A stretch of 63,563 nt of DNA, the filler included, from Kipferlia bialata (taxonomy: Eukaryota), in assembly GCA_003568945.1 (NCBI GenBank). It is 7 parts of 7 records of this genome, joined end to end, with 100 filler letters (N's around TTAATTAATTAA, not from the genome) between each part and the next. Parts side by side here need not be neighbours in the genome. Positions count along the whole stretch, not along the records: positions 30,927 to 41,118 come from BDIP01001476.1; 6 more parts are not named here. The stretch is one strand, 5' to 3'. Of the stretch, positions 7,100 to 53,854 are shown piece by piece; position 1 is the stretch's first letter; each line of letters opens with the position of its first letter. The notes beneath the pieces were generated by a model, which saw only the letters and a program-made list of their open reading frames with translations, did not search any database and was not told the origin of the DNA. The translations under genes and the position numbers were made by a program.

Positions 7100-7281
7100 T
7101 CGCCCAGAGCACGGCACGGCACGGGAAAAGACACCAAGCTCCATCTCGCAGCAAAAGATTTGCTGCTGAACCCTCAGACAAAAATCGCCGTCTCTATCAG
7201 ACGCTCTGTTGTACGCCTTTTACCAAGTTGGTCCTTCCCTTGTGGGCAATCGTAATTGAAGCTACACCGGTATTTGTACGT

Positions 7282-17300: not shown

Positions 17301-19356
17301 NNNNNNNNNNNNNNNNNNNNNNNNNNNNNNNNNNNNNNNNNNNNNNNNNNNNNNNNNNNNNNNNNNNNNNNNNNNNNNNNNNNNNNNNNNNNNNNNNNNN
17401 NNNNNNNNNNNNNNNNNNNNNNNNNNNNNNNNNNNNNNNNNNNNNNNNNNNNNNNNNNNNNNNNNNNNNNNNNNNNNNACATATATATATACCTACCTTG
17501 TGCAGTCTGCCACCCTGACGTATGTGTTGGTCTTGGGACTGATCTGACGGTGATGGATGGTTGACTATAACGCACACTGGGAATATGGACCAATACGTAA
17601 ATCACAAAACACTCCAGTATCATACATGATACCTCGACTGCACTCTAACCACTCTGGACATAAGTGAAAAGAAATATACATTGGGGTGTTCAACTATATA
17701 TATGTATGTGTTATTAGTTCATCTGCACACACACCTCCACTCTGCTCAACCACCCAGTGCATATGTAACCAGTACATGTGAATATACATACTTGTGAACT
17801 AGTATATATATACTGGAGTGTATATGTATATTCTTGTGTACATACCTCCACTGTACCCATCCACTCTGGGCATATGTCCAGACCACTCCTGTTGACACAG
17901 ATGAGGCAGTACTCGCCAAGCACATTGCGGTTGGCAGACCTGATGTTAGGACTACATATAGGTACACTCATTAATGTATGTATACATACGTTACATATTG
18001 TACTCCCCAAGCACATTGCGGTTGGCAGTCCTAAGGGTTGGGAGAAAATTATCCAGTAATACCCATATAGTGTGAATATATTGTAGTATAATTATTCGAA
18101 ACAACTATATCAAGTTTAGGGTATTCATATGTGTACTTACGTGCGAGGGTCTTGAGAGTCATATGCATATGTATATATATATGTTCATATGTATCTGCGT
18201 ATAATAGTGTAGTGCATGCATATGTATACGCATTGACGTACTTTCGAGGGTCTTGAGAGTCATATCCGCCCATCAGATAGTCCATACGGCTGTACTGGGG
18301 TGAGATTGGGAAGCTGTGAAACATATACATTTACTTAAGTGAAATAGAGATATAGATATTCTGAATACATATTCATCCATACCTTATAGCCTTCCGTGTC
18401 TCTGGCGCTACAATACTGGATAATACAGCATAATATGTATATGCAGTATTATATAGTGTATTGAATTCATCAGTAAATACCTTATCCGTTGGCTGTGTTG
18501 CCTTCCGTGTCTCTGCCTCTAAAAGAGTATATATATACACAAATAGTACAATATAGTGTTCATATATCATATATACATTGTATGCATTTACCTTATCCGT
18601 TGGCTGTGTTGCCTTCCGTGTCTCTGGGGCCGCAGTTCTCAATATTCTGATACGCTTTGTCTCCTTCCTCACACGGCAAGAGAGCTGGGGTGATGTATAT
18701 AGAGAAATATAGAGCATTGACAACACGTATACATATAGAATATATATACCATGCCACCAATGTATTCACTTGTGTATAATCCATACCCTGATCCTCACAT
18801 GTACCTTAGACATACTAGTATACATGGGTATGAATATTACTGATAGTATATATTATTCATACATATCCATACCCTCGACCCTGTCTTGTACTTTGGGTCC
18901 CGTGGGTATATATGTATAAATCATATATATATAAGTAGTATATCCCCCCTTCTCAATATATATATACATATACATACCCTCGACCGTGTCTTGTACTTTG
19001 GGTCCTGGGGGTGTGTCTTGTAGATGGGGATGACAGACACAACGAGGTGCTGGGGTAAGAAAGATGTACGGTATACAATATATCATATGTATTCATAGCT
19101 CCTTGTCTGACACGATGTCACTGTTGGGGGGAGACCATATGAGTATACACAGTATGCATTTATATACATTCACAAAGTGTGTATATATCCCTCCTTATCT
19201 GACCCATGTCACTGCCGGGGGTGTATATATGACGTAGCTATATATACACACACATATATATATACAAGTATATGGGTTGGTGACTACATATATATGATGT
19301 ATATCCATACCCCATGTCACTGCCAGAGAGAGAACACATAAGTATACGTAGTATAC

Positions 19357-19389
<33 letters not shown>

Positions 19390-20422
19390 CATATGTATAC
19401 ATATATATATATGTACTAACTGTATATGGATACCTCCTTGTCTGACCCCATGTCACTGCCAGGGAAAGAACACATAAGTATACGTAGTATGAATATATAT
19501 ACATATATATAAATGTGTGTACTATCTCTATATCCATACCTCCTTGTCTGACCCCATGTCACTGCCAGGGGGGAGTGTATATATGTATACGTAGTATACA
19601 TATGTATACATATATATATTGTATGTATACATATATATATAGTATGTCTATATACCTCCCTGTCTGACCCCATGTCACTGCCAGGTGGCAGTACCACCAG
19701 ACTGGGTGGACCCTTGGGCTTGACCTGATAGTGAGATAATGCATAGAGAGAGAGCAGACAGAGAAAGAGAGTCTGATTAGTATGGGATGCCTCGGGAGTG
19801 GGAGGGGCTCAATGAATATATAGATAGACAGATATGATAGGTATATACTATTAGATAATACTAATATGTAGAGCAGACATAGAGAGTACCTGCTTAGGAG
19901 GAGATGCCTTGGCAGCTTGAGGAGTGGCAGTGGCAGCTGACCCTGTCTGGAGGATGAGGAATACATATATATATGTAGATATACATACTATATACATACT
20001 ATATACATATACATATACATACTCATACATGTACCAATGGAACCATATATTATAGATGTATATAGTGTACATTTGCAGGAGAGGGGAGAGAGGGTGAGAA
20101 TTTAACCTGGGGAGGAGGTTGAAAGGGGGGGGGGGGCGTAAGGCTGACCATTGTATCATTTGGGGATGACTTGATATATATGACATATATATCCTCCAAG
20201 GATACAGAGTATCGTTTAATACATAGGGATATGAGAGAGAGAGACTACCTGCTTCGTTGGAGGTGGCTAATATATATTAATGAATATATGCACAGACAGG
20301 CAGAGAGAGAGAGAGAGAGACAGAGAGAGAGAGAGAGATAGAGAGAGAGAGACTACCTGCTTTGCTGGAGTTGGCTTCAGAGCTAGGGGAGACACACTGG
20401 CAGAAGTGGTAGTGGACTCCAC
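11311..20422 (-). CDS. Large many-exon protein of unknown function (5' truncated, internal gap) with C-terminal CxxC-CxxC motif
   Basis: Exons read e.g. YSRMDYLMGGYDSQDPRK, SANRNVLGEYCLICVNRSGLDICPEW, IDHRVCDILHQAFNGDKWQDMC, FWRYVMVGQRMSIVVHCEAK, WQAIICSQCGGLFPSTNSR|TKKCFRC, ending PKYSRYGY* (TAG 11313-11311). Could be two genes across the 16529-17478 gap. Confidence 0.55.
16020..16495 (-). repeat. Array of five partial exon copies (NKKGVALYVHCNPL-like)
   Basis: Variants of the plus-strand motif CCAATGGGTTGCAGTGCACGTACAGGGCCACCCCCTTCTTG recur at roughly 100-nt spacing with TA-rich spacers. Confidence 0.85.
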
Positions 20423-21931: not shown

Positions 21932-24900
21932 AATAGACAATATATATATATGAGATACTGATACTGACACAGATATGGAGTCCCTGGAANNNNNNNNNAT
22001 ATATATGAGATACTGATACTGACACAGATATGGAGTCCCTGGAACCCCTGAAGCCTTGGATAAGAAACAATAACTACGTGGTATTTAGAGAAAAGTGTGC
22101 ACATACCTACGCGTTCGGAGCCTGGCATAGGAGATGGCGGGGCACTGTCTCTCGAGTATGCTCTGGACCTAGGGGTGCCTGAGGGGTAAGCAGAGTGAGG
22201 GAGAGAGGTAGAGAGCGAGAGAGGAAGTGGCAAAACCTGGACCTAGGGGTGCCTGGGGGGTAGCAAGAGAGGGAGAGGGGATATGATACACACATGCATA
22301 TACAATTATGGAGAGAGAGAGTTAGGAAGTGGTACCTGAGGCCGGCGACCGCATAGCCCGGTACCCCTTGCTCTCTCTCTCCACCATCTTCTCTCTCTCC
22401 CTGTCAGATCCACCAAAGTTGTATAGGTCGAACCAACACCCTAGGGCTAGGACGAAACAGAGCGCAAAGAGAGACAGGAGCATCACGGTGGTCTGGTGGT
22501 GAGGTATATACATATATGTATATACAAGAATAGTGAAGATGAATGATATAGGCACAGGAGCATGACGGCTGTCTGGTAGTGAGAAGCTGAGTAGACACAT
22601 ATACTGATACTGATAACGCGTATATACTCATGATGGAAAGGCAAGTGAAGGAGCGGATGAGGGTGAGATACAGGCGAGAAAGGGAAACCACATACGCACC
22701 CCCCCCCCTGCAATGTGCAGTACCAACAGGACAGCTGCCATTGTGCATGTTGTACCAGTGTCAGTCAGGACCGACATGACAGCCAGAGGGACATGCAGTA
22801 CACGCAGTGACTTAGATTAGTATACATACATGAATACATATATATATAGAGAGAGAGAGTGTGTCGGTCAAGACAGACATGACAGCCAGAGGGACATGCA
22901 GTACACGAAGAGACTAAGGTTAGGATACGTATGAATATATATATATATATGGCGAGAGAAAGAGAGAGTCTGTCATTATTTCAGACATACATTACGGAGG
23001 GACTTGGGTCAGCAGAGAGAACTGAGGGAGGAAGATATGTAGTGCACGCAAGAACTAGTATGGAAGCCCACCTCCACCATGACGTCTGTGCTGGCATCTA
23101 CATACACTACCTATGTTATACACTACAAATAAATACCATATGTATACACTATACATATACATCCACCCACCTCCACCATGACGTCTGTGCTGGCAAAGGA
23201 GAACGTGCCCAACAGACACCTGGGGTTCAGGGGGGTAGAGCAACCAAATGATAGTAGAATACAAATGTGCACATAAAAATATATATATTCATACATATAG
23301 AATGTGCCCAACAGACACCTGGGGGTCAGGGGGAGGGAAAGAGATGCGATATATGAGCAGACGTCAGAGAGTGAGAGCGAAGCGCATAGTTAGATTACAC
23401 ATAACCCCCCCCCCCCTCCAATAGCTATGCTGTAACTGTATACATACCACAAGGGTGACTCCTCATGGAAGACTGAGTATATATACAGTACAGGTACTTA
23501 CCCCATGGCTATGCACAATATACATGTGCTAGATAGCAGGAGGGACTCCTCATGGAAGACTGAGTATATGAACAGGGCAGAGGCCAGGGCCAGGAGACAG
23601 AGGGACAGACCCACACCGGCACCCTCGCCACCCCTTGGTATTAGTATTTGGTTTGAGATATAATAGAAGTAATATATATATATATATATCTTTATATAAA
23701 AGTGTATATGAGAGAGAGAGAAAAAGAGAGAGAGGGACCTACACCGGCACCCTCGCCACCCTTTAACATCAGAGCGAGACAATTGGAAAGAAGGAAGGAA
23801 AGAAAGAGAGATAGAGAGAGAGAGAGAGAAAGAGAGAGATAACGCTGTCAATGGAATTGTGGTACCTTCCCCTCCCCTTTCTGCTCCCCCTGAGGCTCCT
23901 GGGCTGGGTCCTGCCCTTCTTGATAGAGGACTGCTTAGAATGTCTGACACAGCCATATGCAACAAACATAATGGCAATGCCTGATGTAAGGGGCTAGAGG
24001 GAGAGAGAGAGAGAGAGAGAGAATGACGCAACCATAGGCCACAAACATGACCGCTATGCCTGGTATATGGGGCTCGAGAGAGTATGGGTGTCCACATCAC
24101 CGCAAAACCAGTATACAAAACTACATATATACATATTATCATACCTACAGCAAGACCGACAGCTGTGCACAGGAGACACAGGGCACCTGGGGATAAGAGA
24201 GACACAGAGGGGGAGAGAGAGACAGGGAAGAAGTAGAACACTCGCAGGGAAATATATGTACTTGTGTAATGATATGTAGAATTTTACCCGTGTGCATGAG
24301 GTTGTCTGACACGACAGATGGATGTGCAGCCAAGAGCTGGGGCAGGACACACACAAGGGCCTGATTGTGAGAAGAGAGAGAAAGGGGAGGGGGGGGGGGG
24401 GGATATCAGAGAGGCGACACCGACTGTACCTTCAGACACCCACATACTGCCTCGTTAACAAGATTGTGCATACATATATGCACAACCCATACATACACAT
24501 ATATACCTTGAGACACCCACACACCGCCCCGTATCTGAGGCTTCTGTTGACCATGCCCCTGCCCGCTAGTCGCTTCCCAACCTTGAGACCCCTGGGGGTG
24601 AGTATACACTTTCAACACATATCTATACGTATGACATACAGAGACTTAGGTGTGAGTTATAATGGAGAATAGTAACGAGTATAATATACAGAGATACTGC
24701 TTACCAGTCTCTTGCCAACGTTGAGACCCCTGCGTGTGACATATCATGTGACTATATACAACACTGCGTGGTATATATACCTGAACACGTGCGTATGGGC
24801 GTTGCGGGCAGCTGCCGTGAGGGACCTGCGCCACGTGACAAGACCGGGTCTGTCCTAGGGGGTAAGGCATAATTAACATATCATATAGAACAGCAACACT

Positions 24901-26396
24901 TAGAATTGCACTATATTCTACTCTTTAAGTAAATACATATATCATCATAAATACTGGAAATGGATAGTAATTTATATATACGTTTACCCATACCTTTGGC
25001 AGCAGGAATGTGAGTGCCCCAAGTATCATACAGATTCACGATAAATATATATAATATACGAATATGAAAATAATATATATATATACTAAAATACTAATAC
25101 ATATACCCATACCTTTGGCAGCAGGAATGTGAGTGCCCCAAGGCCAAGCAGAAGGAGACACACAACTACCTGGGGTGGGTATATACAGTAGATACTAGAA
25201 AGATACATAGACAATATATTAATGTATATTTTTTGATTATGTATATATCACAACCTGGGGTCAAATAAGTATGTAGAAAGAGAGAGAGAGAGTAGGACTT
25301 TGGTCTCACCATTGACATGGTCGCACTGTGCCCTGGGTATGTGTGTGTGGACAGGGAGGCAGGTATACATATATGCATATATATATACATATATATATAC
25401 ATATCAATATACATACCATCGACATTGTGGCACTGTGCCCTGGGTATGTGTGTGTGGACAGGGAGGCAGGGGCCAGTGCAAACAGGCCCCCACAGACACA
25501 CACCAGGGTGAGGCAGGATGCAAGGGCATGGCGCTTCTGTCTTTGGTTAGTCATACTCATCACACACACACATATATAGTGTATGCCAGGGTGGTTAGCA
25601 CTCAGGTACTTTCCTATACAATAATCATGCAGTGTGTTGCATAGTACCTAGACACCGACACTGACAGTATGTATCTGCAGTATGACAGGAAGTGTGTCAG
25701 CACAGCCATGGCCACGAAGCAGCAGCAGAGGACAGCGGTGGAGAGACCTGAGGGGTGAGAGACATTCCAGTATACTATGTTAGTATTGGGGATTGAATGG
25801 TTAGAGAATAAAAATATACTGAATTTAGACATATACAGAAATACATATTGGTAGAAACATCATTATTGACTGTATATTGTAACACTATACCTGATACCGA
25901 TTGCCCCATGAGCATCAGGGGTGAATATGAAGAAGTACACACATACACACACACACACATATACATATATATATAAATTCGTATATATACTAGACCAGAT
26001 ACACTACCTGACACCGATGGCCCCATCGACCCCATGAGCATCAGGGGTGCATTGAGAAGGGCAGACCCAAGGGTCACAAAGACAACGGCAGACCGGAGGT
26101 GCTGGGGTGAGATATACACAATTCAGAGGGAGAGAGAGAGAGAGAGAGACTGGGGTGTTAGTTCTTATATGAAAGGAATGTGTTAAGAGAGACAGAGACA
26201 TCGGTGGTGGGATGAGAGCACGTGAGATAGAGAAGGGTCAACCGGTTCCTTCTCAGATAGTAGGCATTATACTTCGTATTGTATTAGTATTTCATACACC
26301 ATATACCTGTCTCTCATATGTGGCCACACTGGGGCAGTATCAGTAACAATTTCCACCAAAAGGTCTAGGAACGTATGGTCCCACTACTATATATAC

Positions 26397-26429
<33 letters not shown>

Positions 26430-26487
26430 CCTGTCTCTCGTATGTGGCCACACCCAGTGCAGGCAGCAGAACGAGGGTGCAGAGGCC
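21768..26487 (-). CDS. Polytopic membrane protein (about 10 or more hydrophobic segments; transporter-like), start not resolved
   Basis: Exons e.g. GLCTLVLLPALGVATYERQ, HLRSAVVFVTLGSALLNAPLMLM, GLSTAVLCCCFVAMAVLTHFLSYC, GVGLSLCLLALASALFIYSVFHEE, TTVMLLSLFALCFVLALGCWFDLY; Ser/Arg-rich tail ends at TAG 21770-21768. Confidence 0.6.
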
Positions 26488-31080: not shown

Positions 31081-32311
31081 CCTCTGCCGATGTGACCCCC
31101 CCTATCACCACAACCAGCACTGTGGAGTCAGCATCCCTCTCGTCCAGGGAGTCAACGGCCTGGGGGTCAGAAATATATATATATATATATATATATATCA
31201 CTAAATAAGACATATGAAGTCTGTCGTCCATGGAGTCAACGGCCTAATGTCAACGTATTGCTACTGGTAATAGTAATGGAGAAATAGGTAAATATATATA
31301 CTGTAAGATAACTCTCGTCTAGGGAGTCCACGGCCTGGGGGTCAGTATAATAATGATTATGTACTGCAAATAGTGTAGTATATATATATACATAGTACAT
31401 TAATATGGAGGAGACATGGAGAGAGAGAGAGACATGGACCAGACTATTATTGCCAATTATACTGAGAATCTACCACATACCTGCTTCACTGCCTTCTCAT
31501 ACCCTCCCTCCCTCTCTCTCTCTATATATATATATATATACATCAATACATATTTATATATATCCTTCATACCTGCTCCACTACCTTCTTATACTCTCTC
31601 TCTCTCTCTCTCTCAATATATATATATATACATCAATACACACATATATATACATATATACATATATATATACATATATATATACATATATACATATATC
31701 ATTCACACCTGCTTAACAATATGGTACATATGTATATACCTGCTTGACTGCCTTCTTGTCCACATTGAGACCAGGGAAGGGGATGACTGGGGGTAAGAGA
31801 GATGACAGAGTAGGTAGTGTACACCGAGAGAGTGAGATAGGGGAAAGAGCACATCCAACCATTAACAGGACAAAGAGGGTGTAGAAAGAGAGAGAGAGAG
31901 AGAGAGAGTCCCACCTTCGTCGGGGTATGACCTAAACAGACTCCTGATGCCAGAGGTGGCAGGGGCAGACACAAAGTAGGACACAATCCTGTAAATTAGA
32001 GGGGAATTATTTAGGTAAGGCTTAATAAATACGTGGCAGTCTCAATAGAAGTGTATGTATAATAATAAGCAATCTATCTCATCCTTCCAACTAGATATAT
32101 ACTAGACATATATTATATATACATGTATACACAATTACCCACCTGCACAGGAGTGGGGCATAGCACTGGTACACATAGGCCTCGTCATCTGGGGGGGTTA
32201 GGCAATGGTCATTAGTAATAATTATAGAGAAATGAACAATCCATATATATCCATATATATACTCTACATACTATACCTGGGTCATTGATGTCCACCTCTG
32301 GGTTGATCTGG

Positions 32312-32343
<32 letters not shown>

Positions 32344-32926
32344 CCATGTATAGATGCATACTATACCTGGGTCATTGATGTCCACCTCTGGGTTGATCTG
32401 GGACATGGCCTTCTCTCTCTCTCTCTCTCTATCTATCTACATATATACTATATATTACATACTATACCTGGGTCATTGATGTCCACCTCTGGGTTGATCT
32501 GGCTCATGGCCTTCTTGGCCTTGTCACGCCACTTGCCTGCCTAATATAAGTGTATAATATACAGTGTATATATATATTTCATACTAATGAGATATATATA
32601 TATATATCTATATATATCTATTTGACATGGCCTTCTTGGCCTTGTCACGCCACTTGCCGGCCTGACATTAATGAATATGTGGGTTCATATACATACAATC
32701 ACTCCAGGAGGTATTGTATATGACCACTATATACTGCATTTGCACCATTGCAGCAATGCTACTTACTACGAACGGCCCTGCCTCCTCCAGAGACTTCAGT
32801 ACACTCCCTCTCCCTCTCTTTCTATATATATATATATACAATGCTCACACACTGCATATACATATACCTTAGCCGTAGGGCGACTGTTCACTACAAGGAG
32901 TTGTGCCTCCTCCAGAGACTGACGTA

Positions 32927-32961
<35 letters not shown>

Positions 32962-33837
32962 GTAATCCCAGTACCTTAGCTGCTGGGTGGCTATTGACAA
33001 CAAAGAGTTCAGCCTCCTCCAATAACTGCAGTACTCTCTCTCTCTCTCTATATATATATATAATTACACTATATACCTTAGCAGCGGGATGACTGTTTAC
33101 TACGAATAGACCAGCCTCCTACAGGGACTGGACTACTCTCTCTCTATATATATATACATATGCACAGTATATATACATAAAATAATATATAAATACCTTG
33201 GCTGCTGGGTGGCTATTGACGACGAATAGACCAGCCTCCTCCAGAGACTGAACTACTCTCTCTCTCTCTATATATATATATATACATATGCACAGTATAT
33301 ATACATATAATAATATATATGTACCTTGGCTGCTGGGTGGCTGTTGACAACAAACAGGCCAGCCTCCTCCAATGACTGGAGGGTCACAAGGTGGGCAAAG
33401 CCATACTGCTGGCAGAACTCAACACACAGCCTGGGGGATAAAGGTGCAGATAGAGAGAGAGAGAGAGAGAGAGAACAGGCATAACAAATTGAGATACGAT
33501 ATATGATACTCATGTCATAGAGTTAATATCAATATACATGTCGATCTATATACACATACCTATTGTAGTTCTTGGCCGGCACCCCGTTGCATGTCAGGGA
33601 GTAAAGACACATGAGACGCATGGGGTAGGTGATGTCAGAGCTGATATTAGAAGTGTAGGAGGGAGAGAGACAGAGAGAGAAAGAGGTACGTACCCTGCTG
33701 CTATAGCGTCTGACACATACTCGTATGGGCTCATCTTGCCCTTCATGGGGGCAGTGCCTGTATTAAGGGTGTAGACACAGTATATATCTTAGATATAATA
33801 TCTAGTATATTGGGGCAGTGCCTGATATAAATGGTGT

Positions 33838-33873
<36 letters not shown>

Positions 33874-33919
33874 TCATCTTGCCCTTCATGGGGGCAGTGC
33901 CTGATATAAGGGTGTAGAC

Positions 33920-33950
<31 letters not shown>

Positions 33951-34549
33951 TAGACTCATACCTTGCACCAGGTTTCTCTCAAACTCGAGCAGCTCATAGA
34001 AGCGTCTATCCATGGAGTCGTTGATCTCCTTGAGGAGGCTGATAGTGAGGTATATAGTAATGCATAGTAGTATACAATACCTCCATACATATATATGTGT
34101 GTGTGTATGTTAATATATCAATACGTACCGCATGTGCATCTCGATGCTCTCCTTCCTGGCAGTCTTACAATTAGGTATATATTAGTATCATATAACAAAT
34201 ATATTATACTATATATATATATATACTAACTGCACTCACCGCATGTGCATCTCGATGCTCTCCTTCCTGGCTGTCTTCTCCACAATCTCCTTGGTGGTCT
34301 CCTGGAAGCCACCGCCCCTGGTATTAAGGGGGTAGAGGGGGAGAGATGATATATATAGATCACTCTGAGTCCAGCATAGACTCCTTCATATCAAGATTAG
34401 AATGCAGCGACAGCACATCTATATACATTCACATACACACGTATACATATAGAATTCTCACAGAGAGAGCATTATAACACATATAAAATACTCTCTCTAC
34501 ACATATATACTACATATACTATATAACATATATATAATACCACATGTAA

Positions 34550-34580
<31 letters not shown>

Positions 34581-36439
34581 CTACTTATACCATATACCTA
34601 AAGTCGAGCAGGGACTCCTTCTTCTTCTCATAGAGAGAGCATTATATCATATATCTAATACTCTCTCTCTCTCTATATATATATATATACTACTATACTA
34701 CTTATACTATACCTAAAGTCCAACAGGGACTCCTTCTTCTTCTCAGACTCTGCAAACCAGTCAGCAACGGCATGGCCAGCCTGACATAAGGGGGTAGGGG
34801 GGGAGAATAAAAGGGTGCAGGAGGAGAGAAACTGCCAGCCACGGCATGGCCAGCCTGATATAAGGGGGAAGGGGGAAGGAATATATTTCATATATATACA
34901 TACTCTATTACATATATCCACAAAGAATGCATAAACTATGTCAGTCAGCAACGTCATGGCCAGCGTGATAGGAGGGCACAACGGTATAGATACGATATAC
35001 AGACAAAAATCCTATATATATATACATATATTCAGAACGTATAGCAAACAGCAATGGTATGGTCAGCCTATATCAGCCTGATATAAGGGGGAAGAGGGAG
35101 AAGAATGAAGGCGTAGGGAGAGAAACAACCACTAAGCACTTGATCACCTGCTAGAGTGTATATGATGAGTAAATATACAAGGGTATATATACACTCATGT
35201 ACATATTACTACCTGTGCAAGGGCACTATATAATATATAAATATATATATATATATATAATACGTAATAATTAATACACATATATATATAGAAAGTAATA
35301 TGTATATATATACACTATATATACTATATATATGCCCTACCTGTGTCAGGGGCTCCCAGGAGTGCGACACGTGCTCATCCTGACAGTGAATAAAGGGTGT
35401 ACAGGGGTGTAAATAGGGGAAGGACAGATATATATAGTAGAATAGTACATATATAGATAGAACTATTGGAGTGTGACACAAGTGTGTAGATGGGGAACTT
35501 AGGGGCAGGAAGCTGGATACAGAAAGCACTATGACATCATAAATACCACTGCTCACCTGTATCATCCTGTATATCTGGTCTGTGTTGTTGAGGTACTAAG
35601 TGACATATTGTATAACAGCAGTACATATATATACTGATATATATATATATATACATATACACTCACCTGTATCATCCTGTATCTCTGGTCTGTGTTGTTN
35701 NNNNNNNNNNNNNNNNNNNNNNNNNNNNNNNNNNNNNNNNNNNNNNNNNNNNNNNNNNNNNNNNNNNNNNNNNNNNNNNNNNNNNNNNNTATATACTGAT
35801 ATATAGATATATATACATATACACTCACCTGTATCATCCTGTATATCTGGTCTGTGTTGTTGAGGTACTTGGTGTCGGTGGGGGGCTTGGCCTGGGGTAA
35901 GGGAATATACAATAGATAAAGAATAATATATATTTATATATGAATATATATGAATATATATAACATACATAGTAATATATAAACGGGATATACATACAGA
36001 TGAAGAGAGAGAGAGAGAGAGCTTGGTGTCGGGGGGCTTGGCCTCGGGGGGTAAGGGCATATACGTACATACACACATATATATATCGAGAGAGACATAT
36101 ACACCGCCTGTAGAATTGTACCTTTTCTCTCTCACACACACACACTTCATATATACAATTACGAATGTATACACGCATATCATACCTTCTCGTCTGCCTG
36201 TGGAATAGCACCAGCCCTGGCAACCTGGGGTAAGACATATGGAGCCAAGGAATATATATATAATAGTGTAGTATAGTATATGAATATGAGAATACACATA
36301 GCCCTGGCAACCTGGGGTGAGATATAGAATGCATCCTATAATCGTATAGAAAATCATACACAATAGAATATGTACAATCAATATAAATTCACGGTAATAT
36401 ACATAGCCCTGGCAACCTGGGGATGAGACACATGCATAG

Positions 36440-36475
<36 letters not shown>

Positions 36476-37688
36476 CGATATACCTTGCAGCGCGTGTGCT
36501 TCATCTGGCCAATGTTCATCTCGTACATCATGCCCTCATGGGTGACCTAGATCATTAGAATAGGGGATCATTCAAAAGATCTAGAACAGTATATAAACTG
36601 TGGCCATACTGTACACATGCACACAAATCAACAAGACTAGAACTACAGGGACATGTCCATCTCATACATCATACCCTCTTGAAATTGAGGCCAATAATTA
36701 CTATTTGCAACATTACTATATAATATATATGAAGGATATGCATATATAGTATAGTATAGTATACTATATACTATGTGTAGTATATATGTATACATAAACC
36801 CACCTGTGTCATCATGACTGCTGGCCAGTAACACATGTTGAGTATATAGTGTTATAAATATATAGTATACATATATGGATACATACATATCCATAGTATC
36901 CATAGTATAATGAAACTGAATAACATAGTATCAGTGAAATATACATATATTTATATATTTACTCATATATATATGCCCACCTGTGTCATCATGACTGCTG
37001 GCAGGTCCAGCTGTCTGTCCAGGATGATGACCTCGCTGAGAGTAAGAATATTTTATGAATATATATATATATATTATAGATACATGCACTGCATATATAA
37101 CAATCATAGAGTATACATATAGAGAGGCATCTGTCTGTCCAGGATGATGACCTCACTGACAGTAAGAGACACACATGTATATATATACTATAGATACATG
37201 TATACATATACATATNNNNNNNNNNNNNNNNNNNNNNNNNNNNNNNNNNNNNATGTATACATATACATATACAATAGAGTGGATGTCCAGGATGATGAAC
37301 TCGCTGACAGTGAGTATCTATATAGTATACAGTATGAAAAATAACCATAGACTAGAGAGAGAGAGAGAGAGTTCGGACCATACCTGATATGGGGAAGGGT
37401 GTGTACAGTACTGTATAGTATTGCCATTGTTATTGTATACACATTTATGGGCTCATGAGGAGTATACTAGTATCATATTCCTACCTGTATGGGCTGATGT
37501 CTGTGGCGTCCAGCTCTCTGGATACACATATATATAGATACATGAATATAGTGAAGGGAAATGGTATATACTATATACTATATACTATATACTATATACT
37601 ATACTCTATATACTACATACCTGTATGGGCTGATGTCTGTGGCGTCCAGCTCTGTGGCATTCTCCTTCCTCTGGTGGTTAAAGGGTGT

Positions 37689-37728
<40 letters not shown>

Positions 37729-39490
37729 TCTCCTTCCTCTGGTGGTTAAAGGGTGTAGGGAGAGAGAGAGAGAGAGGGAGAGAGAGAGAGAGAGTCCTTC
37801 CTCTGCTAGAGAGAGCAAGAGTCAGATGATAGGTGAAGGTGATATATATATATATATATATACATATATATACATACACTCATATACCTGGCTCTGTATC
37901 AGCTCTGCCACCTTCATGGCACAGGGACCCTTGGCCCTGAGGGGTCAACAGAGGTCAAGAGAGGTCAAGGGAGGTATGAGGGGGTCAATAGAGGTCAAGG
38001 AGTGTAAATGGAAAACACATTAATACGGATATATATATATATGTGTGTGTGTGTGTATATATACAACACTCACCTGATCACCGGTACCACACCGAAACTC
38101 TTCTCGAGGCTGATCAGACCTGGAATGAGCATATATAAACATATATACATATATATATATATATACATAGATATATAGAATATATATATGATATATATAT
38201 ATATACATATATATATACATTTGTCTCGAGACTGATCAGACCTGAGGAAAGTATTTATATACATGATATGTGATGAGGAAGAGTGGGGTATAACTATAAG
38301 AGTATAGTATAGTATGTATACATGTATACTCGCAGGACTCTTCTCGAGACTGATCAGACCTGGGATAAGTATGACATACTATATATATATATATATATAG
38401 GTCAGACCTGCAATTGGAGTAAAATGAACAGTATATATAAAGAGTCCGACCTGTGATAAGGGTGTAGGGGAGATGGATAGGCGTGCAGTGACAGTATGTA
38501 TATATGATAATATCTCTCTCTCTCTCTATATATATACAATATTTATAACACTAACCTCTAGCTGTGGCATACACTGAGTCCTCCAGTCCCTGCACCACAC
38601 TGCGGTATGTGCCTGGCATCTCAAGGCTGATGTTAGAGGCATATACACTACATGCTTATACTATATGTATATACTATATATATATACATATAAATATCAT
38701 ACACAATATAACCACACTGCGGTATGTGCCTGGCATCTCAAGGCTGGGGTTAGATATATAGTATATATATATATATATAGAGAGAGAGAGTGTGTATGTA
38801 TGATATACCACTCATGCATATATACAATATCTACACTGGGATAGGTGCCCGGCATCTCAAGGCTGGGGTAAATATTGAAAACAATGCCCGCTGGCAAATA
38901 CACTGTACCTAATCACATCTCTGTCCCACACTATCCAGTGATGAATGGTAGTATACACACCCATAACTATTCACACAGTATATATCATACTATACGGTGT
39001 ATACATTGATATACCTGATGACGTCTCTGTCCCACACTATCCAATGACTAATGGTAGTGCTAATACCTAGTTATACATACTACATCTCTCTCTATATCCA
39101 TATCTAAATGTATACATTGATACCTGATGACGTCTCTGTCCCACACTATCCAGTGGTTGTCCCACTCAATCACATTGGGGAAGCACAGGCACTCCCTGGG
39201 GTGAGATGGAGATATATATTCAGAACAATATAGTGTAGAATGGAGACAGAGAGAGAGAGAAAAAAGAGAGGGATAAAAACTCAATCACGTTGGGGAAGCA
39301 GAGGCACTCCCTAACAGTTAGATAGAGACAGATATATAGATATAGACAGATATAGANNNNNNNNNNNNNNNNNNNNNNNNNNNNNNNNNNNNNNNNNNNN
39401 NNNNNNNNNNNNNNNNNNNGCATACAAAGAGAGAGAGAGAGAGAGAATCACGTTGGGGAAGCACAGGCACTCCCGTGGGGTGAGATGGAG

Positions 39491-39526
<36 letters not shown>

Positions 39527-39944
39527 TCCACAGTAGAATAAAAGTATACCTGTCCAGGAACGTGTCCAGCATCGATGGCTTGTATGGCACAAACACCACG
39601 AACCAGTCATTGAGGTCGGCACTCTCGTCATTATGAGCTGAGATGTGAGACACAGTACACATAGTACAATATATACACACTAATATGTATATAGGACTAT
39701 TCTATACACACACACCCAGTGTGGCCAGCGTGGCCAGGTTGTCCGGACTCGGTCACATACTATATGTTCTACTTACTATACTCACTATACATAACATATA
39801 TAGATAGACACTATACCTATACAAATATCCTATACCACATACTCTATAATTACTATATACACATACCTAGGGTAGCCAGTGTGGTCAGGTTGTCCAGACT
39901 GGGAGATATAATATACTAATCTATATATATATATAAATCTAATC

Positions 39945-39976
<32 letters not shown>

Positions 39977-41060
39977 CATACACATACCCATTGTGGCCAG
40001 TGTGGTCAGGTTGTCCAGACTGGGCCTCAATATATACTAAGTATGTTACTCTATCTCTCTCTATATATATAAGTATATACACACCCAGTGTGGCCAGTGT
40101 GGTCAGGTTGTCCAGACTGGGCCTCAGGAAGAAGAACTTGACCTTGTGCTCGGCCTTAGACCTAGATGTCAATACAACGGTATATAATAACTGTAGATAT
40201 ATACAATGCTAAATAGAGGAAGCGAGAGAGAGAAGGAAGAGGGGGAACTTGACCTTGTGCTCGGCCTTAGAGTTACGTATTAGTACAATCGATATTACAT
40301 AATAATAATTAATGGTGTATAATACAAATGATAACATATATGTAAATGTGAGAGAGGGGGAGAGAGGAAGAACTTGTGCTCGGCCTTAGATCTATGTATT
40401 AGTACAATTGATAATACATAATAAATAGTGTATAATACATAATTAATAGTGCATAATACAAATGATAGCATATATATGTAAAGAAGAGAGAGGAAGAACT
40501 TGACCTTGTGCTCGGCCTTAGATCTATGTATCAGAGGAGGTATAGATTATAGAGAGAGAGACAGAGAGACAGAGAGAGAGAGAAAAGGAACAGGCTTCCT
40601 ATCGGCCTTGGTATTCAAATACCACTGCGAAACAACGGTCTATATACAGAGGTACAAAAGTGCATGAGTGCAAAAAAGAACTGTGTACATAGATACATAC
40701 CTTGCCCCGAATCTGTGAATCTTGACGTTGGATATCTCGGGCCAACCGGGGGGGAGCTTGCTGGAGTAAGACTCTATACACATATATACAATGGCTTTAC
40801 TCAAAGTAGTATAAAATATACTATTCTATATTAATATATCTAATTACAATCAATATATCTAATTCTTTTATAAACAATCTATATCGAATAATAATAACAA
40901 TACTGAACTATATGTCCATCGGGCCAACCGGGGGGGAGATTGCTGATATGAGTGTATCATACTAATATATGAGTACATATAGGATCTTTTTAGTGTTTAG
41001 TACATATTCATATATATACGTACTGGCTCTTGTCCTTGGCCCTGATGGCCGGGAACTGCA
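31081..41060 (-). CDS. VPS33: Vps33 (Sec1/Munc18 family, HOPS/CORVET subunit), both ends truncated, more than 20 small exons
   Basis: Spliced motifs: FFFLRPSLDNL, FVVFVP, WDRDVI|SLEMP, IILDRQLDLPAVMMTQ|VTHEGM, LRLMCLYSLTCNGV, QQYGFAHLVTLQSLEEAGLF, AYVYQCYAPLLC|R, VLVVVIGGVTSAE. Confidence 0.92.
32760..33430 (-). repeat. VPS33 exon (33430-33325) followed by five donor-side partial copies
   Basis: Copies at about 33252-33197, 33132-33077, 33031-32975, 32922-32868 and 32800-32760; each is preceded by (TA)n(GA)n and the first four keep AAG|GT. Confidence 0.93.
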
Positions 41061-41425
41061 TACATATAGTATACATACATACACACTATATAATATATAA
41101 CATATATATAATACAAACNNNNNNNNNNNNNNNNNNNNNNNNNNNNNNNNNNNNNNNNNNNNTTAATTAATTAANNNNNNNNNNNNNNNNNNNNNNNNNN
41201 NNNNNNNNNNNNNNNNNNTTTTGGCACATTGCACTGTGTGGGGGCTCCCCCCCCCCCCCCCCTCCCCCCCACGCACAACTCCATAGGGGTCAAATCCCTA
41301 TGATAGCTCTCCTCTCCAGTATATAACTAGGCATGGTCCCTATTTGGTGTGTGAATGCATTGATGCAGGTCACAGACAAAAGAAGCAAATGCGATTTTGA
41401 ACCAAGTATTGCGTATATACACTTA

Positions 41426-42085: not shown

Positions 42086-43042
42086 CTACTCCACTGTGAG
42101 GCATGCCCCTGACCCTCCCAGCTTGGACCTGGCCTTGGCCTCGGACTGGGCAGTGTGGCGGATGGAGTCGCTGGGGGTGAGGGTATGTGGTATATATACT
42201 ATATAGGTGTATATATATATATATGATGGGCAGTGTGGCGGATGGAGTCACTGGGGTGAGAGAATATACATTAATAATAGTATCCATACAATAATAGTAA
42301 CATCTGATACCACTGTATTTATGCAAGTATACAATATGGGCAGTGTGTCTGATGGAGTCGCTGGGTCAGAAGGGTGTGTTAATATATATATATATATACA
42401 TATATAGATATATATATCGATGTATACATATATATATATATATATACAAAATGGGCAGTGTGCCGGATGGAGTCACTGGAGTAAGGGTATGTGGTATATA
42501 CAGTATACAGTATATATATTATATACACAAATATACAATACCTAGTGCCACTCCTGCTCTTCTGCTCCATGGTCATGATGAATATATAGCATGGAGTATA
42601 AAGAGTATAATAGTGTATATTAATAATAGTATACATAGTATATATCAGAGAACAGTACCTTGTGCCGCTCCTCCTCTTCTGCTCCATGGTCATGATGTAC
42701 ATATGAATATTGAATAAATAGTATATATATACACATTGATGTATATACCTAGTGCCGCTCCTCCTCTTCTGCTCCATGGTCATGATGTACACATATATAT
42801 AGCCAAAACAGTATATAGATACACTAATACCATACCTAGTGCCGCTCCTCCTCTTCTGCTCCATAGTCATGAGGTACACATATACTATATATATACTATA
42901 TACACATATATATTATACCTTGTGCCGCTCCTCCTCTTCTGCTCCATGGTCATGATGTACATCTAATAGGTATATACAGTACACCATATACACATTGATG
43001 TATATACCTAGTGCTCCATGGCCATGATGTTCATATGCCATA

Positions 43043-43077
<35 letters not shown>

Positions 43078-44269
43078 CTAATGCCACACCTTGTGCCGCT
43101 CCTCCTCTTCTGCTCCATGGTCATGATGTGTCTCTTCATGGCCACCTCCTGTCTCTTGGGGCCTCCGTGCTGGTTGTGGAACACCCTGGGTGGTAAGAAG
43201 ACGCACAAACATATATATATTTACATACACAGATCTAACGTATACATCTGGTTACGCCATCATATACCCGACATGTGCTTGTAATCCTCCTTGGTATACG
43301 TATATATATACGTATATAGTTACTATCATATACCTAGACATGTGCTTGTACTCCTCCCTGATATATATACATATATATATACACATATATACACTAATAT
43401 ATATACGTATGTATACATATACATCACATACCTAGACATGTGCTTGTACTCCTCCTTGATAAATATACATATATATATATATATCCTTGATATACATATA
43501 CATATACACAAATACACATATACCCACCTAGACATGTGCTTGTACTCCTCCTTGGTGGACCTGAGCTGTCCGAAGGAGTCTCTGTACTCAAGAGAGAAGG
43601 GGGTCAGCTTGACAGCGGCCTCAAGCTCCTGGGGTGGGTATGCACTGTATATCACAACCAATACTCGAAGTATACTGACCACTATATATACATACTATAC
43701 ATACCCTTCCCATCTCCTTGCCCCTGGACCCCTTGGACACCACCCTCACAGTATACACATATACTATACATACACACTATTCTATAAGTATACATACTAA
43801 ATGTATACTACATACCCGTCCCATCTCCTTGCCCCTGGACCCCTTGGACACCCCCCTCCCGCCTGGCATTCTGACCCTGGCCTCAGAGGCCTGGCGCTTG
43901 GCAGTGGCCTCCTCACGCTTGGCCTTGTCCTAGGGGTGAGAGGAGGATATATATATATAAGTATATATATATATATATATATACGAGGCCTCCTCGCGCT
44001 TGGCCTTGTCCTAGGGGTTAGTAACTATATACTATACTGTATATACTGATAAATATAAATTATGAAGAGAAATATGATAAGTCTTGGCCTCCTCACGCTT
44101 GGCCTTGTCCTGGGTGTACACGCATACACATATATACACATAAAGTGTATTCTTGATATACACATATATACTCAATGTACCTCCTCTGTCTGCTGGTTGG
44201 GGTCTGTGTACAGTGCCAGAGAGGCCTCGTCCCTGAGGGCATCCATGTCTCCTGGGAGTCAGATATATA

Positions 44270-44316
<47 letters not shown>

Positions 44317-46409
44317 GTATACATATAAATATATACTCATGGATGTGTATTACATAGAGTTTATACAGTATATATATGTATCCTCAGGGTATCCATGGCA
44401 CCTGGGTGAGCGGTAAGTATATATATATATGAATACAGGAATATATATACACGCTTGAATGTATAGTATATAGAGTATATACAGCCAGGGCTATGTACTT
44501 GACTTGTTGAACATCCTGAGTATATACATATAATTATATACACTGTCCCAACGTGTCTATTTGAAGAGCGTATATACACATACTAATATCCATAGATAGT
44601 GAGGGCTATTTACCTGACTTGTTGAACATCCTGAGTNNNNNNNNNNNNNNNNNNNNNNNNNTATTTACCTGACTTGTTGAACATCCTGAGTGCGTCAAAG
44701 ACTGATATGGATGCATTGCCAGAGTCAGCGGAGGACACAGCCTCCATGACCTCGGGCTCGGCATGGGTGGAGGCCTAGCGTTATACATATATATAGAGAG
44801 AGAGAGGGGGAGAGAGAGACATCCATGACCTCGGGCTCGGCATGGGTGGAGGCCTTGGGGGTAAGGGAGAGAGAGAAAGAGAGTATGGTACCTTGCCGAT
44901 GTTCTCTGCTGCAAATGCGGCGTTGGCTGCCTCAGAGGCAGCGTCATCCCTGGGAGTGAGTAAATATATATATATCAGCGTATGTGTGTATATACAGTGC
45001 ATTCATCAATATACCGGGTTGGGAGGCTACTCCGTAATTCATGTGGTAAAGGAGGAAGATAATAGTATTAATACAAAAAACAAAGCTACGTACTTCTCTG
45101 CTGTGATTCCCATCTGTCTCCTGGGCCGCCTCTTGAGGGCAGGGCCAGAGGGGACCTGGGGTTAGCAATATATAATATATCACATACATTCATATATTGT
45201 AGGTAAGACATACCTCTCCCCCCTCCTCGAAGGACTGGTGCTTGGTGGCCTGCACAGTGACACTCTGCACATCCTCCTGGGGTCAGGGGGCATATGCATA
45301 CATTATATACATATATACTGCTCTGCAATAAACATGTGTATCACGTTGAATACCTCTGGAGCGTGTGCCGTTGCCATGTTGACAACCATCTTGGAGGCAG
45401 ACTTACGCATGGCGCCCTTCCTAAGGGTGAGAAGTGGATGGGTAACTAGTACAGTAACCAGATAGAAACTCATACTATATACATATATATGAAGTAGTAC
45501 ATATCATACACGTACTTGTCTCCCAGCCTGGATATGAACTCTGACACGCTGTCCAGCACAATACATAAATAAATATATACATATACTATATATATATAAT
45601 GTATATACACTATATATATACAATAAATATTAACACACATATACACATATACTACATATATATACTCACTTGTCTCCCAGCCTTGATATGAACTCTGACA
45701 CGCTGTCCAGCACAATGCCCTCCTCCAGCTGGGGGGCAGGGCCCTGGAATGAGAGGTATATTAATGAGTATATATGTATATATATGTATGCACACTGTCT
45801 AGGACAATGCCCTCCTCCAGCTGGGGGGCAGGGCCCTGGGGTTAGAACGGTATATACATGTATACAACAGCTGTATATACTACAACAAAATCATGACTTG
45901 CAATATATGACAACCTCCTCCAGCCGGGGGGCAGGGCCCTGGGGGGGGGGGGAGAGAGAGAGCATATATGTACGATCCACAATATACACAAACACTACAT
46001 GTACTGCTATAGATGCACCTCTCCCAATACCACTTCCTCCCATGGGCACATCGGCATATATCTCTATATATACTACATGATACTATATGTATACTATATA
46101 CTATACCTGCCCCAGTGCCACCTCCTCCTCATCATCCTGTCCCTCAGGTAAATCGGTNNNNNNNNNNNNNNNNNNNNNNNNNNNNNNNNNNNNNNNNNNN
46201 NNNNNNNNNNNNNNNNNNNNNNNNNNNNNNNNNNNNNNNNNNNNNNNACTACACATATAACCCCACATACCTGCCCCAGTGCCACCTCCTCCTCATCATC
46301 CTCTCCCATGGGCACATCTGCAGCAGAGACACCACTAACCATCTCCCTGGTCTTGGCCTGGACTGCCTTGGCATACATGGCATGGCGCCGCATCTCCTCC
46401 TCCTCAAGC
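42086..46409 (-). CDS. SART1: SART1/Snu66 (U4/U6.U5 tri-snRNP protein), C-terminal half
   Basis: GIVLDSVSEFISRLGD, SVFDALRMFNKS|G and FSLEYRDSFGQLRSTKEEYKHMS|RVFHNQHGGPKRQEVAMKR (exons 43628-43528, 43185-43090) match the conserved SART1 C-terminus (IEYVDETGRKLTPKEAFRQLSHRFHG); stop TAG 42088-42086. Confidence 0.85.
42540..43130 (-). repeat. Six donor-side partial copies of the SART1 exon end (MTMEQKRRSGT|GT)
   Basis: Plus-strand GTGCCGCTCCTCCTCTTCTGCTCCATGGTCATGA recurs at about 80-120 nt spacing; one copy has an internal deletion. Confidence 0.9.
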
Positions 46410-49600: not shown

Positions 49601-49690
49601 CACTGGATGCTCTGACCACGTCCCTCAGAGACATCTTGGGGTCGTGTCTGGGGGTCAGAGGGTATAGTTGAGGGGGGGTCAGGTCAATGT

Positions 49691-49724
<34 letters not shown>

Positions 49725-51559: not shown

Positions 51560-52320
51560 GTTGCAGAGATCAAGGACCAGATGGCACAGCTGGAGGCACA
51601 GAGAAAGGTATAGAGCGTATTCTATACGGATCTGTACCAAGTATTATATATATATGTGTTTGTGGTTGTGTATTTGCAACCTAGTTGAAACACCACCAGT
51701 CCTCTCTCTCTCCCTCTACCCCCTTATTGTCAGGAAGAGTTGAAGACCATGCAGGAGAGACTCAGCATGTACCACACGGCCACTAGGTCACTGAGGTATA
51801 TATATTAAGAGAGAGAGAGAGACTGACGTGTATAGTATCATAGAAGTATTACTAATATATATATGGCATGTACCACACGGCCACTCGGTCACTGAGGTAT
51901 ATCTTATGTATAGAGAGATTGAATTATACATGTACTAATTGACTATTATTCTACTAATTGAGTGTGTATATAGCATGTACCACACGGCCACTCGGTCACT
52001 GAGGTAGGGTATTGCATATATAGTATATATATCTAATTCCAGTTATTGTTTTAGTGTGTGTTTACACTTACCCCAGGATGCTGATGGACCAGCTGAGACA
52101 GGAACTAGACCTTCTCTCTCTCTCATTATTGTGTTATATACTGTATAGCGCTATTTCTATTCTCTATACTCATCCTAGGATGCTGATGGACCAGCTGAGA
52201 CAGGACCACTCTCCCTCTCTCTCTCTTCATATGCATAACTCTGCTCTTATATATATTACTAGTTCTATGTTACATATCTTACCACATGATGCTGATGGAC
52301 CAGCTGAGACAGGAACCAGA

Positions 52321-52352
<32 letters not shown>

Positions 52353-53818: not shown

Positions 53819-53854
<36 letters not shown>

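What the first reader, a model, noticed from the sequence alone, without database searches (positions are those of the whole stretch)
32760..33430. VPS33 echo array with distance-graded, synonymous-first divergence
Seen: the real exon ends QSLEEAGLFVVNSHPAAK|GT. The nearest copy gives the identical peptide with 7 synonymous and 0 replacement changes. The second has many recoded codons plus one GAG>TAG. The third reads QLLEEAELFVVNSHPAAK, the fourth QSLEEAQLLVVNSRPTAK and the fifth KSLEEAGPFVVSS with no donor. Six distinct versions, one with a stop codon, in a normally single-copy housekeeping gene are hard to explain as two alleles. Inference: a treadmill in which new copies arise next to the exon and older ones are pushed outward and decay, leaving an ordered record of earlier exon versions.
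Basis: partly seen in the sequence, partly recalled or inferred. Interest (0 to 1): 0.85.

Follow-up and report, generated by a model that had tools for sequence, protein, structure and literature searches.

The report
Exon ends echoed inside protist introns
In the free-living protist Kipferlia bialata, the ends of many exons are repeated inside the neighbouring introns; the repeats are spliced out (shown for one gene) yet differ from the real exon mostly at silent positions, likely because they were captured from other working versions of the same gene by slipped recombination.

Summary
Observation confirmed, and the pattern is wider than reported. The gene is Kipferlia bialata VPS33. Five copies of the exon 20 tail lie in intron 20, and the spliced contig uses only the real exon. 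Across five genes there are 127 echoes in 59 of 89 introns: exon tails plus GT after donors, and AG plus exon heads before acceptors. Four other genes have none in 32 introns. Echoes differ from the exon at 168 silent and 71 replacement sites (pN/pS 0.12; duplicate-then-decay simulates 0.34-0.43), keep splice signals and the AAG/GAG codon rule, yet their intron flanks are nearly unrelated. They look like pieces of divergent working alleles that died recently. The strict ordered treadmill fails: nucleotide distances run 7, 13, 6, 16; the ladder tree ranks 50 of 105; only replacements rise with distance. Best mechanism (about 0.5, inferred): out-of-register recombination between divergent alleles. 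It needs very high diversity, which is unmeasured. No description found in print. The scan noted single-gene cases on other DNA (annelid, sea urchin).

The parts
33325..33430 (-). VPS33 exon 20 (106 nt), the real exon; its last 54 nt are the echoed tail
   Evidence: Exact map of P0001; covered with 0 other letters by the spliced contig X2 record 9
32541..33324 (-). Intron 20 (784 nt, GT..AG), holding five tail echoes and one head echo
   Evidence: X2 record 9 runs from exon 20 (record 875-980) straight into exon 21 (981-1052), table 8
33197..33250 (-). Echo 1 plus GT: same peptide, 7 silent changes; its spacer is nearly identical to the spacer after the real exon
   Evidence: present on DNA contig piece 4 of X1
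33077..33130 (-). Echo 2 plus GT: 12 silent codon changes and one stop
32975..33028 (-). Echo 3 plus GT: closest to the real tail in nucleotides (6 of 54), two replaced codons
32868..32921 (-). Echo 4 plus GT: 16 of 54 nt differ, four replaced codons
32743..32796 (-). Echo 5: only the first 13 codons align (11 of 39 nt differ), no donor
   Evidence: on one DNA contig with the head echo of exon 21 (X1 record 3)
32626..32661 (-). Head echo: acceptor AG plus the first 36 nt of exon 21, one silent change
32468..32540 (-). VPS33 exon 21, the real acceptor exon, itself followed by two tail echoes
34129..34166 (-). Tail echo of exon 16; one DNA contig bridges the real exon end, the spacer and this echo
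   Evidence: X1 record 7 covers 34131-34271 with 0 other letters
31082..41061 (-). VPS33 gene (25 exons mapped, 3' end incomplete): 39 echoes in 19 of 24 introns, pN/pS 0.097
   Evidence: (Sec1 family)
11318..19946 (-). KIPB_005976 gene: 21 echoes in 10 of 21 introns, pN/pS 0.357
42090..46409 (-). Predicted gene (SART1-like by recall, not confirmed by Pfam): 21 echoes in 8 of 11 introns, pN/pS 0.124
   Evidence: Own gene model
51734..60858 (+). Predicted gene of unknown family: 37 echoes in 14 of 22 introns, pN/pS 0.085
   Evidence: Own gene model
23167..26486 (-). Predicted gene of unknown family: 9 echoes in 8 of 11 introns, pN/pS 0.081
   Evidence: Own gene model

Best explanation
The array is one case of a pattern in five genes of this window, where exon ends with their splice signal are repeated in the adjoining intron, are spliced out (shown for VPS33), and were likely captured from divergent working alleles of the same gene by out-of-register recombination. 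Step 1 (inferred): a slip at microhomology between an intronic (CT)n, (GA)n or (TA)n tract and the exon duplicates one splice junction. A copy with only one splice site is tolerated, because the first donor and the last acceptor are used (shown for VPS33 exons 16-23). Step 2 (inferred): intron flanks lose similarity fast, so the 20-60 nt exon-derived part is the only handle for homologous pairing. An echo on one chromosome pairs with the real exon end of a divergent allele or homeolog. Crossover or conversion then adds or removes a unit of about 110 nt, refreshes the echo with that allele's exon end, or swaps the real exon and leaves the earlier version behind. Step 3: silent differences are inherited allelic divergence (inferred); replacement differences look like neutral decay since capture and rise outward (shown). 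The array is a shuffled sample of alleles, not a dated ladder.
For: Echo-versus-exon divergence has the profile of two coding alleles: 168 silent changes in 860 sites and 71 replacements in 3035, ratio 0.12, bootstrap over arrays 0.08-0.19, against 0.34-0.43 for duplicate-then-decay run through the same detector. The excess holds for each base at 4-fold versus 0-fold sites. Echoes keep the codon rule: AAG/GAG/CAG third G>A in 2 of 226, against G>A in 12 of 159 at 4-fold sites, p 0.001. GC3 equals the real exon's, 0.653 vs 0.657. GT is kept in 67 of 71, AG in 51 of 56, a branch-point-like motif in 48 of 56. Flanks are near unrelated: identity 0.65 vs 0.62 for tails, 0.63 vs 0.55 for heads. Neighbouring echoes differ from each other the same way (52 silent, 30 replacement, ratio 0.145, focal array left out). 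Silent changes are symmetric in direction (69 vs 63). Replacements look unselected (2 stops vs 3.2 expected; same share of conservative changes) and rise with rank (p 0.012). Units in one array share their length (mean difference 4.1 vs 12.7 nt shuffled). (CT)n lies at 14 of 56 head junctions against 4% background, (GA)n at 6 of 71 tail junctions against 1.8%. PMC8516963 (passages) reports that metamonads lack NHEJ, likely rely on homologous recombination and keep key meiotic proteins.
Against: It needs silent diversity near 0.2 and unalignable introns between alleles; neither is measured, and no second strain was in reach. The DNA run shows no other letters where its contigs cover the gene, so no second allele is visible in that sample; contigs drop rare variants. 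Sex has not been observed in Metamonada (PMC8516963 passage). Echo 2 differs at 12 silent codons, near saturation, which is deep for alleles. The spacers after the real tail and after echo 1 are nearly identical, so that pair needs an extra exon-only swap. KIPB_005976 gives 0.357, the duplicate-then-decay value. Weaker remnants found at a lower threshold give 0.26 (24 pieces; combined 0.14). The predicted enrichment of replacements at the far end of echoes is weak (p 0.08). Frames for three of the five genes come from my own predictor, which recovered 21 of 25 VPS33 exons when trained without them. Why four genes have no echoes is unexplained.
Confidence: 0.5

Rival explanations
1. Spare parts in current use. 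Echoes replace the real exon end often enough to be selected as coding, either in DNA (deletion or conversion between the direct repeats) or in RNA (polymerase jump between repeats, then splicing at the echo's own site).
For: It explains at once the retained amino acids, codon rule, GT/AG and branch points. Deleting from the real tail to an echo tail would leave an intact gene (seen in the sequence).
Against: The main spliced contig carries the real exon with 0 other letters and joins across all echoes. Replacement changes look unselected, with 2 stops. By my own population-genetic argument, exchange frequent enough to expose echoes to selection would also erase silent differences unless diversity is very high, which merges this with the best explanation.
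Confidence: 0.2
2. Error-prone recopying. Each duplication or repair event rewrites the functional copy with a burst of mutations, only silent bursts survive, and the old copy is pushed out unchanged.
For: It needs no population diversity. In multi-copy arrays 11 silent and 1 replacement changes set the real exon apart from all its echoes. The near-identical spacers of the real tail and echo 1 fit a recent duplication followed by fast recoding.
Against: Changes private to inner echoes are also silent-biased, 20 to 8. Direction is symmetric. Echoed exon parts are no lower in GC3 than other exon parts (0.639 vs 0.620). Bursts of 7-12 purely silent changes are unlikely to pass selection in one step (inference).
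Confidence: 0.12
3. One reading: duplication beside the exon in one lineage, with older copies pushed out and decaying in order.
For: Replaced codons rise 0, 1, 2, 4 along the focal array; replacements rise with rank across arrays (p 0.012).
Against: Simulated ratio 0.34-0.43 against 0.12 observed (p 1e-15). Silent distance is not ranked (p 0.20). Ladder tree ranks 50 of 105. First versus last echo: 13 vs 7 of 29 arrays, p 0.26.
Confidence: 0.06
4. Assembly artefact: haplotypes or strains of a mixed culture strung in tandem by a short-read assembler at microsatellites.
For: The divergence profile is that of alleles. Junctions sit in TA/GA/CT tracts. Three echoes abut N gaps and were dropped. 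No listed piece spans the focal array, and 32799-33169 was skipped as repeat. X1 may be the source data of the assembly.
Against: One separately assembled DNA contig bridges exon 16, its spacer and its echo (34131-34271), another links echo 5 to the exon 21 head echo. Pieces with the real exon, echo 1 and echo 5 have depths 380, 437 and 392, like neighbouring pieces at 418 and 444 (depth is only a weak guide). Chained alleles should give tail-intron-head blocks, but tails precede heads in 17 of 17 introns that have both. Echo 2 carries a stop in a housekeeping gene.
Confidence: 0.07
5. Alternative or mutually exclusive mini-exons translated in minor isoforms.
For: Strong silent bias; a CAG at the start of echoes 1-4 could serve as an acceptor for an in-frame 51-nt add-on.
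Against: Each echo has only one proper splice end. Exon 20 starts in phase 2, so a phase-0 tail cannot replace it. Echo 2 has a stop. Echo lengths are arbitrary (median 29 nt). The spliced contig joins across them.
Confidence: 0.05

Closest known systems
Human F7 intron 7 37-bp VNTR with 5' pseudo-sites (PMC1557585; abstract and Discussion read)
   Same: The repeat unit spans the exon-intron junction, downstream copies keep the donor, and only the most upstream donor is used.
   Different: F7 is one locus whose pseudo-sites are identical in sequence, on the donor side only. Here 79 of about 178 exon ends in five genes are echoed, on both donor and acceptor sides, spacers are mostly unrelated, and the exon part diverges in a codon-aware way.
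Intron gain by tandem or internal gene duplication (Rogers model recalled; Gao and Lynch 2009 seen only as a reference line in PMC3488318; text not held)
   Same: Local tandem duplication of coding sequence at splice junctions; intron length grows by about 102 nt per echo.
   Different: No new intron is made. The Rogers layout would put a head copy after the donor and a tail copy before the acceptor; here tails precede heads in 17 of 17 introns.
Tandem exon duplication and mutually exclusive exons (established knowledge, recalled)
   Same: Neighbouring copies that differ mostly at silent sites.
   Different: Those are whole exons with both splice sites and are expressed; these are half-exons with one splice site and are skipped.
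Silent-cassette gene conversion such as Borrelia vls (PMC11499132, start of abstract in a search listing only)
   Same: Unexpressed partial copies beside an expressed sequence, linked by recombination.
   Different: vls cassettes diversify a surface antigen by one-way conversion. These sit in introns of ordinary genes and differ silently; no conversion was shown here.

Membership tests
F7-type junction-spanning repeat | Unit spans the exon-intron junction and the first unit holds the real donor | tested here: met
F7-type junction-spanning repeat | Downstream pseudo-donors intact but unused | tested here: met
   GT kept in echoes 1-4; main spliced contig skips them; minor use cannot be seen in contigs
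F7-type junction-spanning repeat | Units near-identical along their length (minisatellite) | tested here: not met
   Exon part 94-95% identical but flanks near unrelated; focal spacers 48-74 nt and different
F7-type junction-spanning repeat | Copy number varies between individuals; pseudo-sites work when the first is mutated | not testable with these tools
   One genotype only; no experiment possible
Tandem duplicated / mutually exclusive exons | Each copy has its own acceptor and donor in a compatible phase | tested here: not met
   One splice end per echo; phases
Tandem duplicated / mutually exclusive exons | Copies appear in mRNA | tested here: inconclusive
   Absent from the main contig, which joins across them; rare isoforms are not visible in contigs
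Intron gain by tandem duplication (Rogers model, recalled) | Intron reads donor, head copy, tail copy, acceptor | tested here: not met
   Tails before heads in 17 of 17; wrong-side hits 3 of 168
Introner or other mobile repeat | One sequence family shared among unrelated introns | tested here: not met
   Echoes match only the adjacent exon; 1 of 2972 control hits within genes. Terminal repeats were not examined specifically.
Silent-cassette conversion system | Cassettes donate sequence to the expressed copy | not testable with these tools
   Needs raw reads or several clones

The most novel reading that the evidence does not exclude
Across the Kipferlia genome, introns are built largely from captured exon ends of other alleles, so one genome stores a population sample of its own coding variants and betrays cryptic sex in a hyper-diverse metamonad. 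The echoes may also serve as a selected reserve that recombination swaps back into the gene, and a reduced spliceosome picks the last of several intact acceptors thousands of times.
Probability: 0.35. Interest if true: 0.92.

Novelty: new variant of a known kind. Interest (0 to 1): 0.78.

Why it matters
Untranslated intronic copies should not respect the genetic code, yet these do, in four of five genes. If they are captured alleles, a single genome gives a read-out of population diversity and recombination in a group where sex has never been observed. It would show a route of intron growth (about 100 nt per event) in the most intron-rich fornicate of the published comparison (124,912 introns; PMC5874029 section read). 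It also supplies many natural tests of splice-site choice: intact acceptors with branch points are skipped in favour of the last one, in a species reported to keep only 87 of 174 spliceosomal proteins (PMC6679479 passages). Practically, echoes mark true splice sites, mislead gene finders and may explain breaks in the assembly.

Tried and rejected
No whole genome is held, so the genome-wide rank test was replaced by a window-wide one. Only two runs hold the stretch, none on record as RNA; X2 is a guessed RNA run that behaves as spliced. Only 31900-34480 was laid, and only contigs, so rare variants and adjacency inside the focal array stay open; lack of X2 cover over the echoes is used only because a contig joins across them. 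No second strain or relative was found in metagenomes by protein (40 pattern matches, 0 confirmed) or by DNA pattern (0), so no outgroup tree was possible. A homolog search for the 51734-60858 gene found nothing. The representative search for the 42090-46409 gene returned two repetitive, unrelated proteins. Pfam named only VPS33 and adenylate kinase above cut-off among 22 queries. A mutation-spectrum explanation was rejected: the excess holds per base and per change type. Detection bias was checked: adding 15 or 24 weaker remnants gives 0.12 or 0.14. A cDNA origin was rejected: tail echoes continue into GT, not into the next exon. Literature: nine searches (listings only) and term look-ups in the genome paper ('duplicat', 'ploid', 'heterozyg' 0 hits) showed no description of these echoes. 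Subscription papers are mostly not held and I opened no supplements, which could mention intron repeats. Look-ups of earlier scan notes by place and by sequence were empty.

Full report
Identity and layout. The exon query matches vacuolar protein sorting 33 of Kipferlia bialata at 100% (P0001; Sec1 family). P0001 maps exactly as 25 exons with GT..AG introns on the minus strand, 41061 to 31082. The flagged array lies in intron 20 (32541-33324, 784 nt), after exon 20 (33325-33430). No whole genome is held, so all counts are for this window, which is a chain of pieces of about 10.2 kb.

The observation. The six peptides, the 7 silent and 0 replacement changes of copy 1, the stop in copy 2 and the lost donor of copy 5 are as reported. 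All copies start at the same codon after a (TA)n(GA)n tract, and copies 1-4 end in GT. Grading by distance holds for replaced codons (0, 1, 2, 4 of 18) but not for nucleotides (7, 13, 6, 16 of 54).

Is it real, and is it expressed? Two runs hold the stretch; I laid both on 31900-34480. X2, a guessed RNA run, gives one 1919-nt contig whose pieces follow exons 16-23 with 0 other letters. It passes from exon 20 (record 875-980) directly to exon 21 (981-1052). That joint is read from the table of pieces; the joint table lists three other introns and says four joints at repeats were dropped. So the main transcript uses the first donor and the last acceptor. In the DNA run X1, one contig bridges the end of exon 16, the spacer and its echo, and another links echo 5 to the head echo of exon 21. 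Pieces with the real exon, echo 1 and echo 5 have depths like their neighbours. No listed piece spans the focal array, echoes 2-4 fell in a skipped stretch, and X1 may be the assembly's own source, so long reads are still needed.

It is not confined to this exon. An anchored, ungapped search found two mirror-image kinds of echo: exon tail plus GT downstream of a donor, and AG plus exon head upstream of an acceptor. Models came from P0001, from P0002 (adjusted by my predictor) and from my own predictor for the other genes (21 of 25 VPS33 exons recovered when trained without them). After dropping three echoes next to N gaps and one weak hit, 127 echoes in 79 arrays remain, in 59 of 89 introns of five genes. 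Copy 5 of the focal array is not among them, because it lacks the donor end. Four genes have none in 32 introns. Controls: 1 hit in 2972 trials with non-adjacent exon ends and 3 wrong-side hits in 168. Tails precede heads in 17 of 17 introns with both; the unit period has median 110 nt; units of one array share their length.

The puzzle. Echoes differ from their exon at 168 of 860 silent and 71 of 3035 replacement sites, ratio 0.12 (bootstrap 0.08-0.19; 0.133 without the focal array). A duplicate that drifts while the exon changes silently gives 0.34-0.43 through the same detector, rejected at p 1e-15 (sites within arrays are not independent, and rank-1 echoes alone give p 2e-8). Per gene the ratios are 0.097, 0.357, 0.124, 0.085 and 0.081; KIPB_005976 is the exception. 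The excess holds for every base. Echoes also obey the species' codon rule (AAG/GAG/CAG to A in 2 of 226, against 12 of 159 at 4-fold G), match the exon in GC3, and keep GT in 67 of 71, AG in 51 of 56 and a branch-point-like motif in 48 of 56. Their intron flanks, in contrast, are little closer to the real flank than to unrelated introns. The replacement changes that do occur look unselected. This is the profile of two working alleles, one of which stopped working recently.

Testing the treadmill. Outer echoes carry more replacements (27 vs 10 pairs, permutation p 0.012) but not more silent changes (22 vs 15, p 0.20); first versus last echo is 13 vs 7 of 29 arrays. For the focal array the ladder tree costs 35 steps against 30, rank 50 of 105, and the best trees put echo 3 next to the real exon; on five copies the ladder ties second of 15. 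Changes private to an inner echo are 20 silent to 8 replacement outside the focal array, where neutral decay predicts about 70% replacement. Position therefore tracks time since a copy died, weakly, but not the order of exon versions.

Mechanism. Founding duplications likely arise by microhomology slips: (CT)n lies at 14 of 56 head junctions (4% background) and (GA)n at 6 of 71 tail junctions (1.8%). Copies with one splice end are harmless if the outermost sites are chosen, as in human F7 intron 7, where only the most upstream of five to nine identical donors is used (PMC1557585, abstract and Discussion). Within one lineage, neither drift nor conversion between exon and echo can push the ratio much below the simulated range (my argument). 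The silent excess must come from sequence that was coding elsewhere. The simplest source is another allele or homeolog, brought in when the short exon-derived part pairs out of register with the real exon end of a divergent chromosome. PMC8516963 (passages) reports no NHEJ in metamonads, likely reliance on homologous recombination, conserved meiotic proteins and no observed sex. Against this reading: it needs silent diversity near 0.2, which nobody has measured; X1 shows no second allele where covered; echo 2 is near saturation; the spacers of the real tail and echo 1 are nearly identical; and one gene fits plain decay. I put it at 0.5, current use as spare parts at 0.2, error-prone recopying at 0.12, artefact at 0.07, the strict treadmill at 0.06 and mini-exons at 0.05.

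What is known. Structurally it works like the F7 repeat but fails the near-identical-unit feature, and it occurs on both sides of exons. It fails the tests for mutually exclusive exons, Rogers-type intron gain (model recalled) and mobile introns. The genome paper reports 124,912 canonical introns, and the section and passages I read do not mention such copies (PMC5874029). Nine literature searches (listings only) showed no description; supplements were not opened. Earlier notes of this scan describe single-gene junction repeats in an annelid and in sea urchins; these are unchecked leads, and one of them pointed me to F7.

Verdict. A real and surprising feature: dense, two-sided, codon-respecting echoes of exon ends in introns. 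New variant of a known kind, interest 0.78.

Noticed in passing
window 46628-50302, 28830-30501, 6297-7144, 7372-9312, 73-2189: Four predicted genes have no echo in 32 introns and a fifth has one weak hit in 8. Their introns are short (median 93-120 nt) and TA-poor (0.16-0.22 vs 0.26-0.35 in echo-rich genes). A model-free repeat scan agrees.
   Followed up: partly
coding exons across the window: Lys and Glu codons are almost only AAG and GAG (VPS33 35 of 35 and 37 of 38).
   Followed up: partly
window 16030-16500: About five tail echoes with a period near 100 nt, whose real exon probably lies in the 950-N gap; not counted.
   Followed up: no
window 14443 and 14535: A head echo matches an exon start 33 nt upstream of the one in the public protein P0002, so echoes can mark true acceptors.
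   Followed up: partly
N gaps at 35700, 44637 and 56838: Assembly gaps sit inside echo arrays; the arrays may be a cause of the fragmented assembly.
   Followed up: no
window 10228, 20528, 30827, 41119, 51404, 61684: The window is a chain of pieces of about 10.2 kb joined by 100-nt linkers, so neighbouring genes across linkers are not neighbours in the genome.
   Followed up: yes
window 42542-42958: Five tail echoes alternate between two silent states of the last codons (real-type, other, other, real-type, other), a mosaic rather than a ladder.
   Followed up: partly
window 32255: A second X2 contig leaves the sequence here with 242 letters that lie on nothing in the laid stretch.
   Followed up: no
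window 27475-28479 (+): Intronless open frame of 334 codons among intron-rich genes; family not tested.
   Followed up: no
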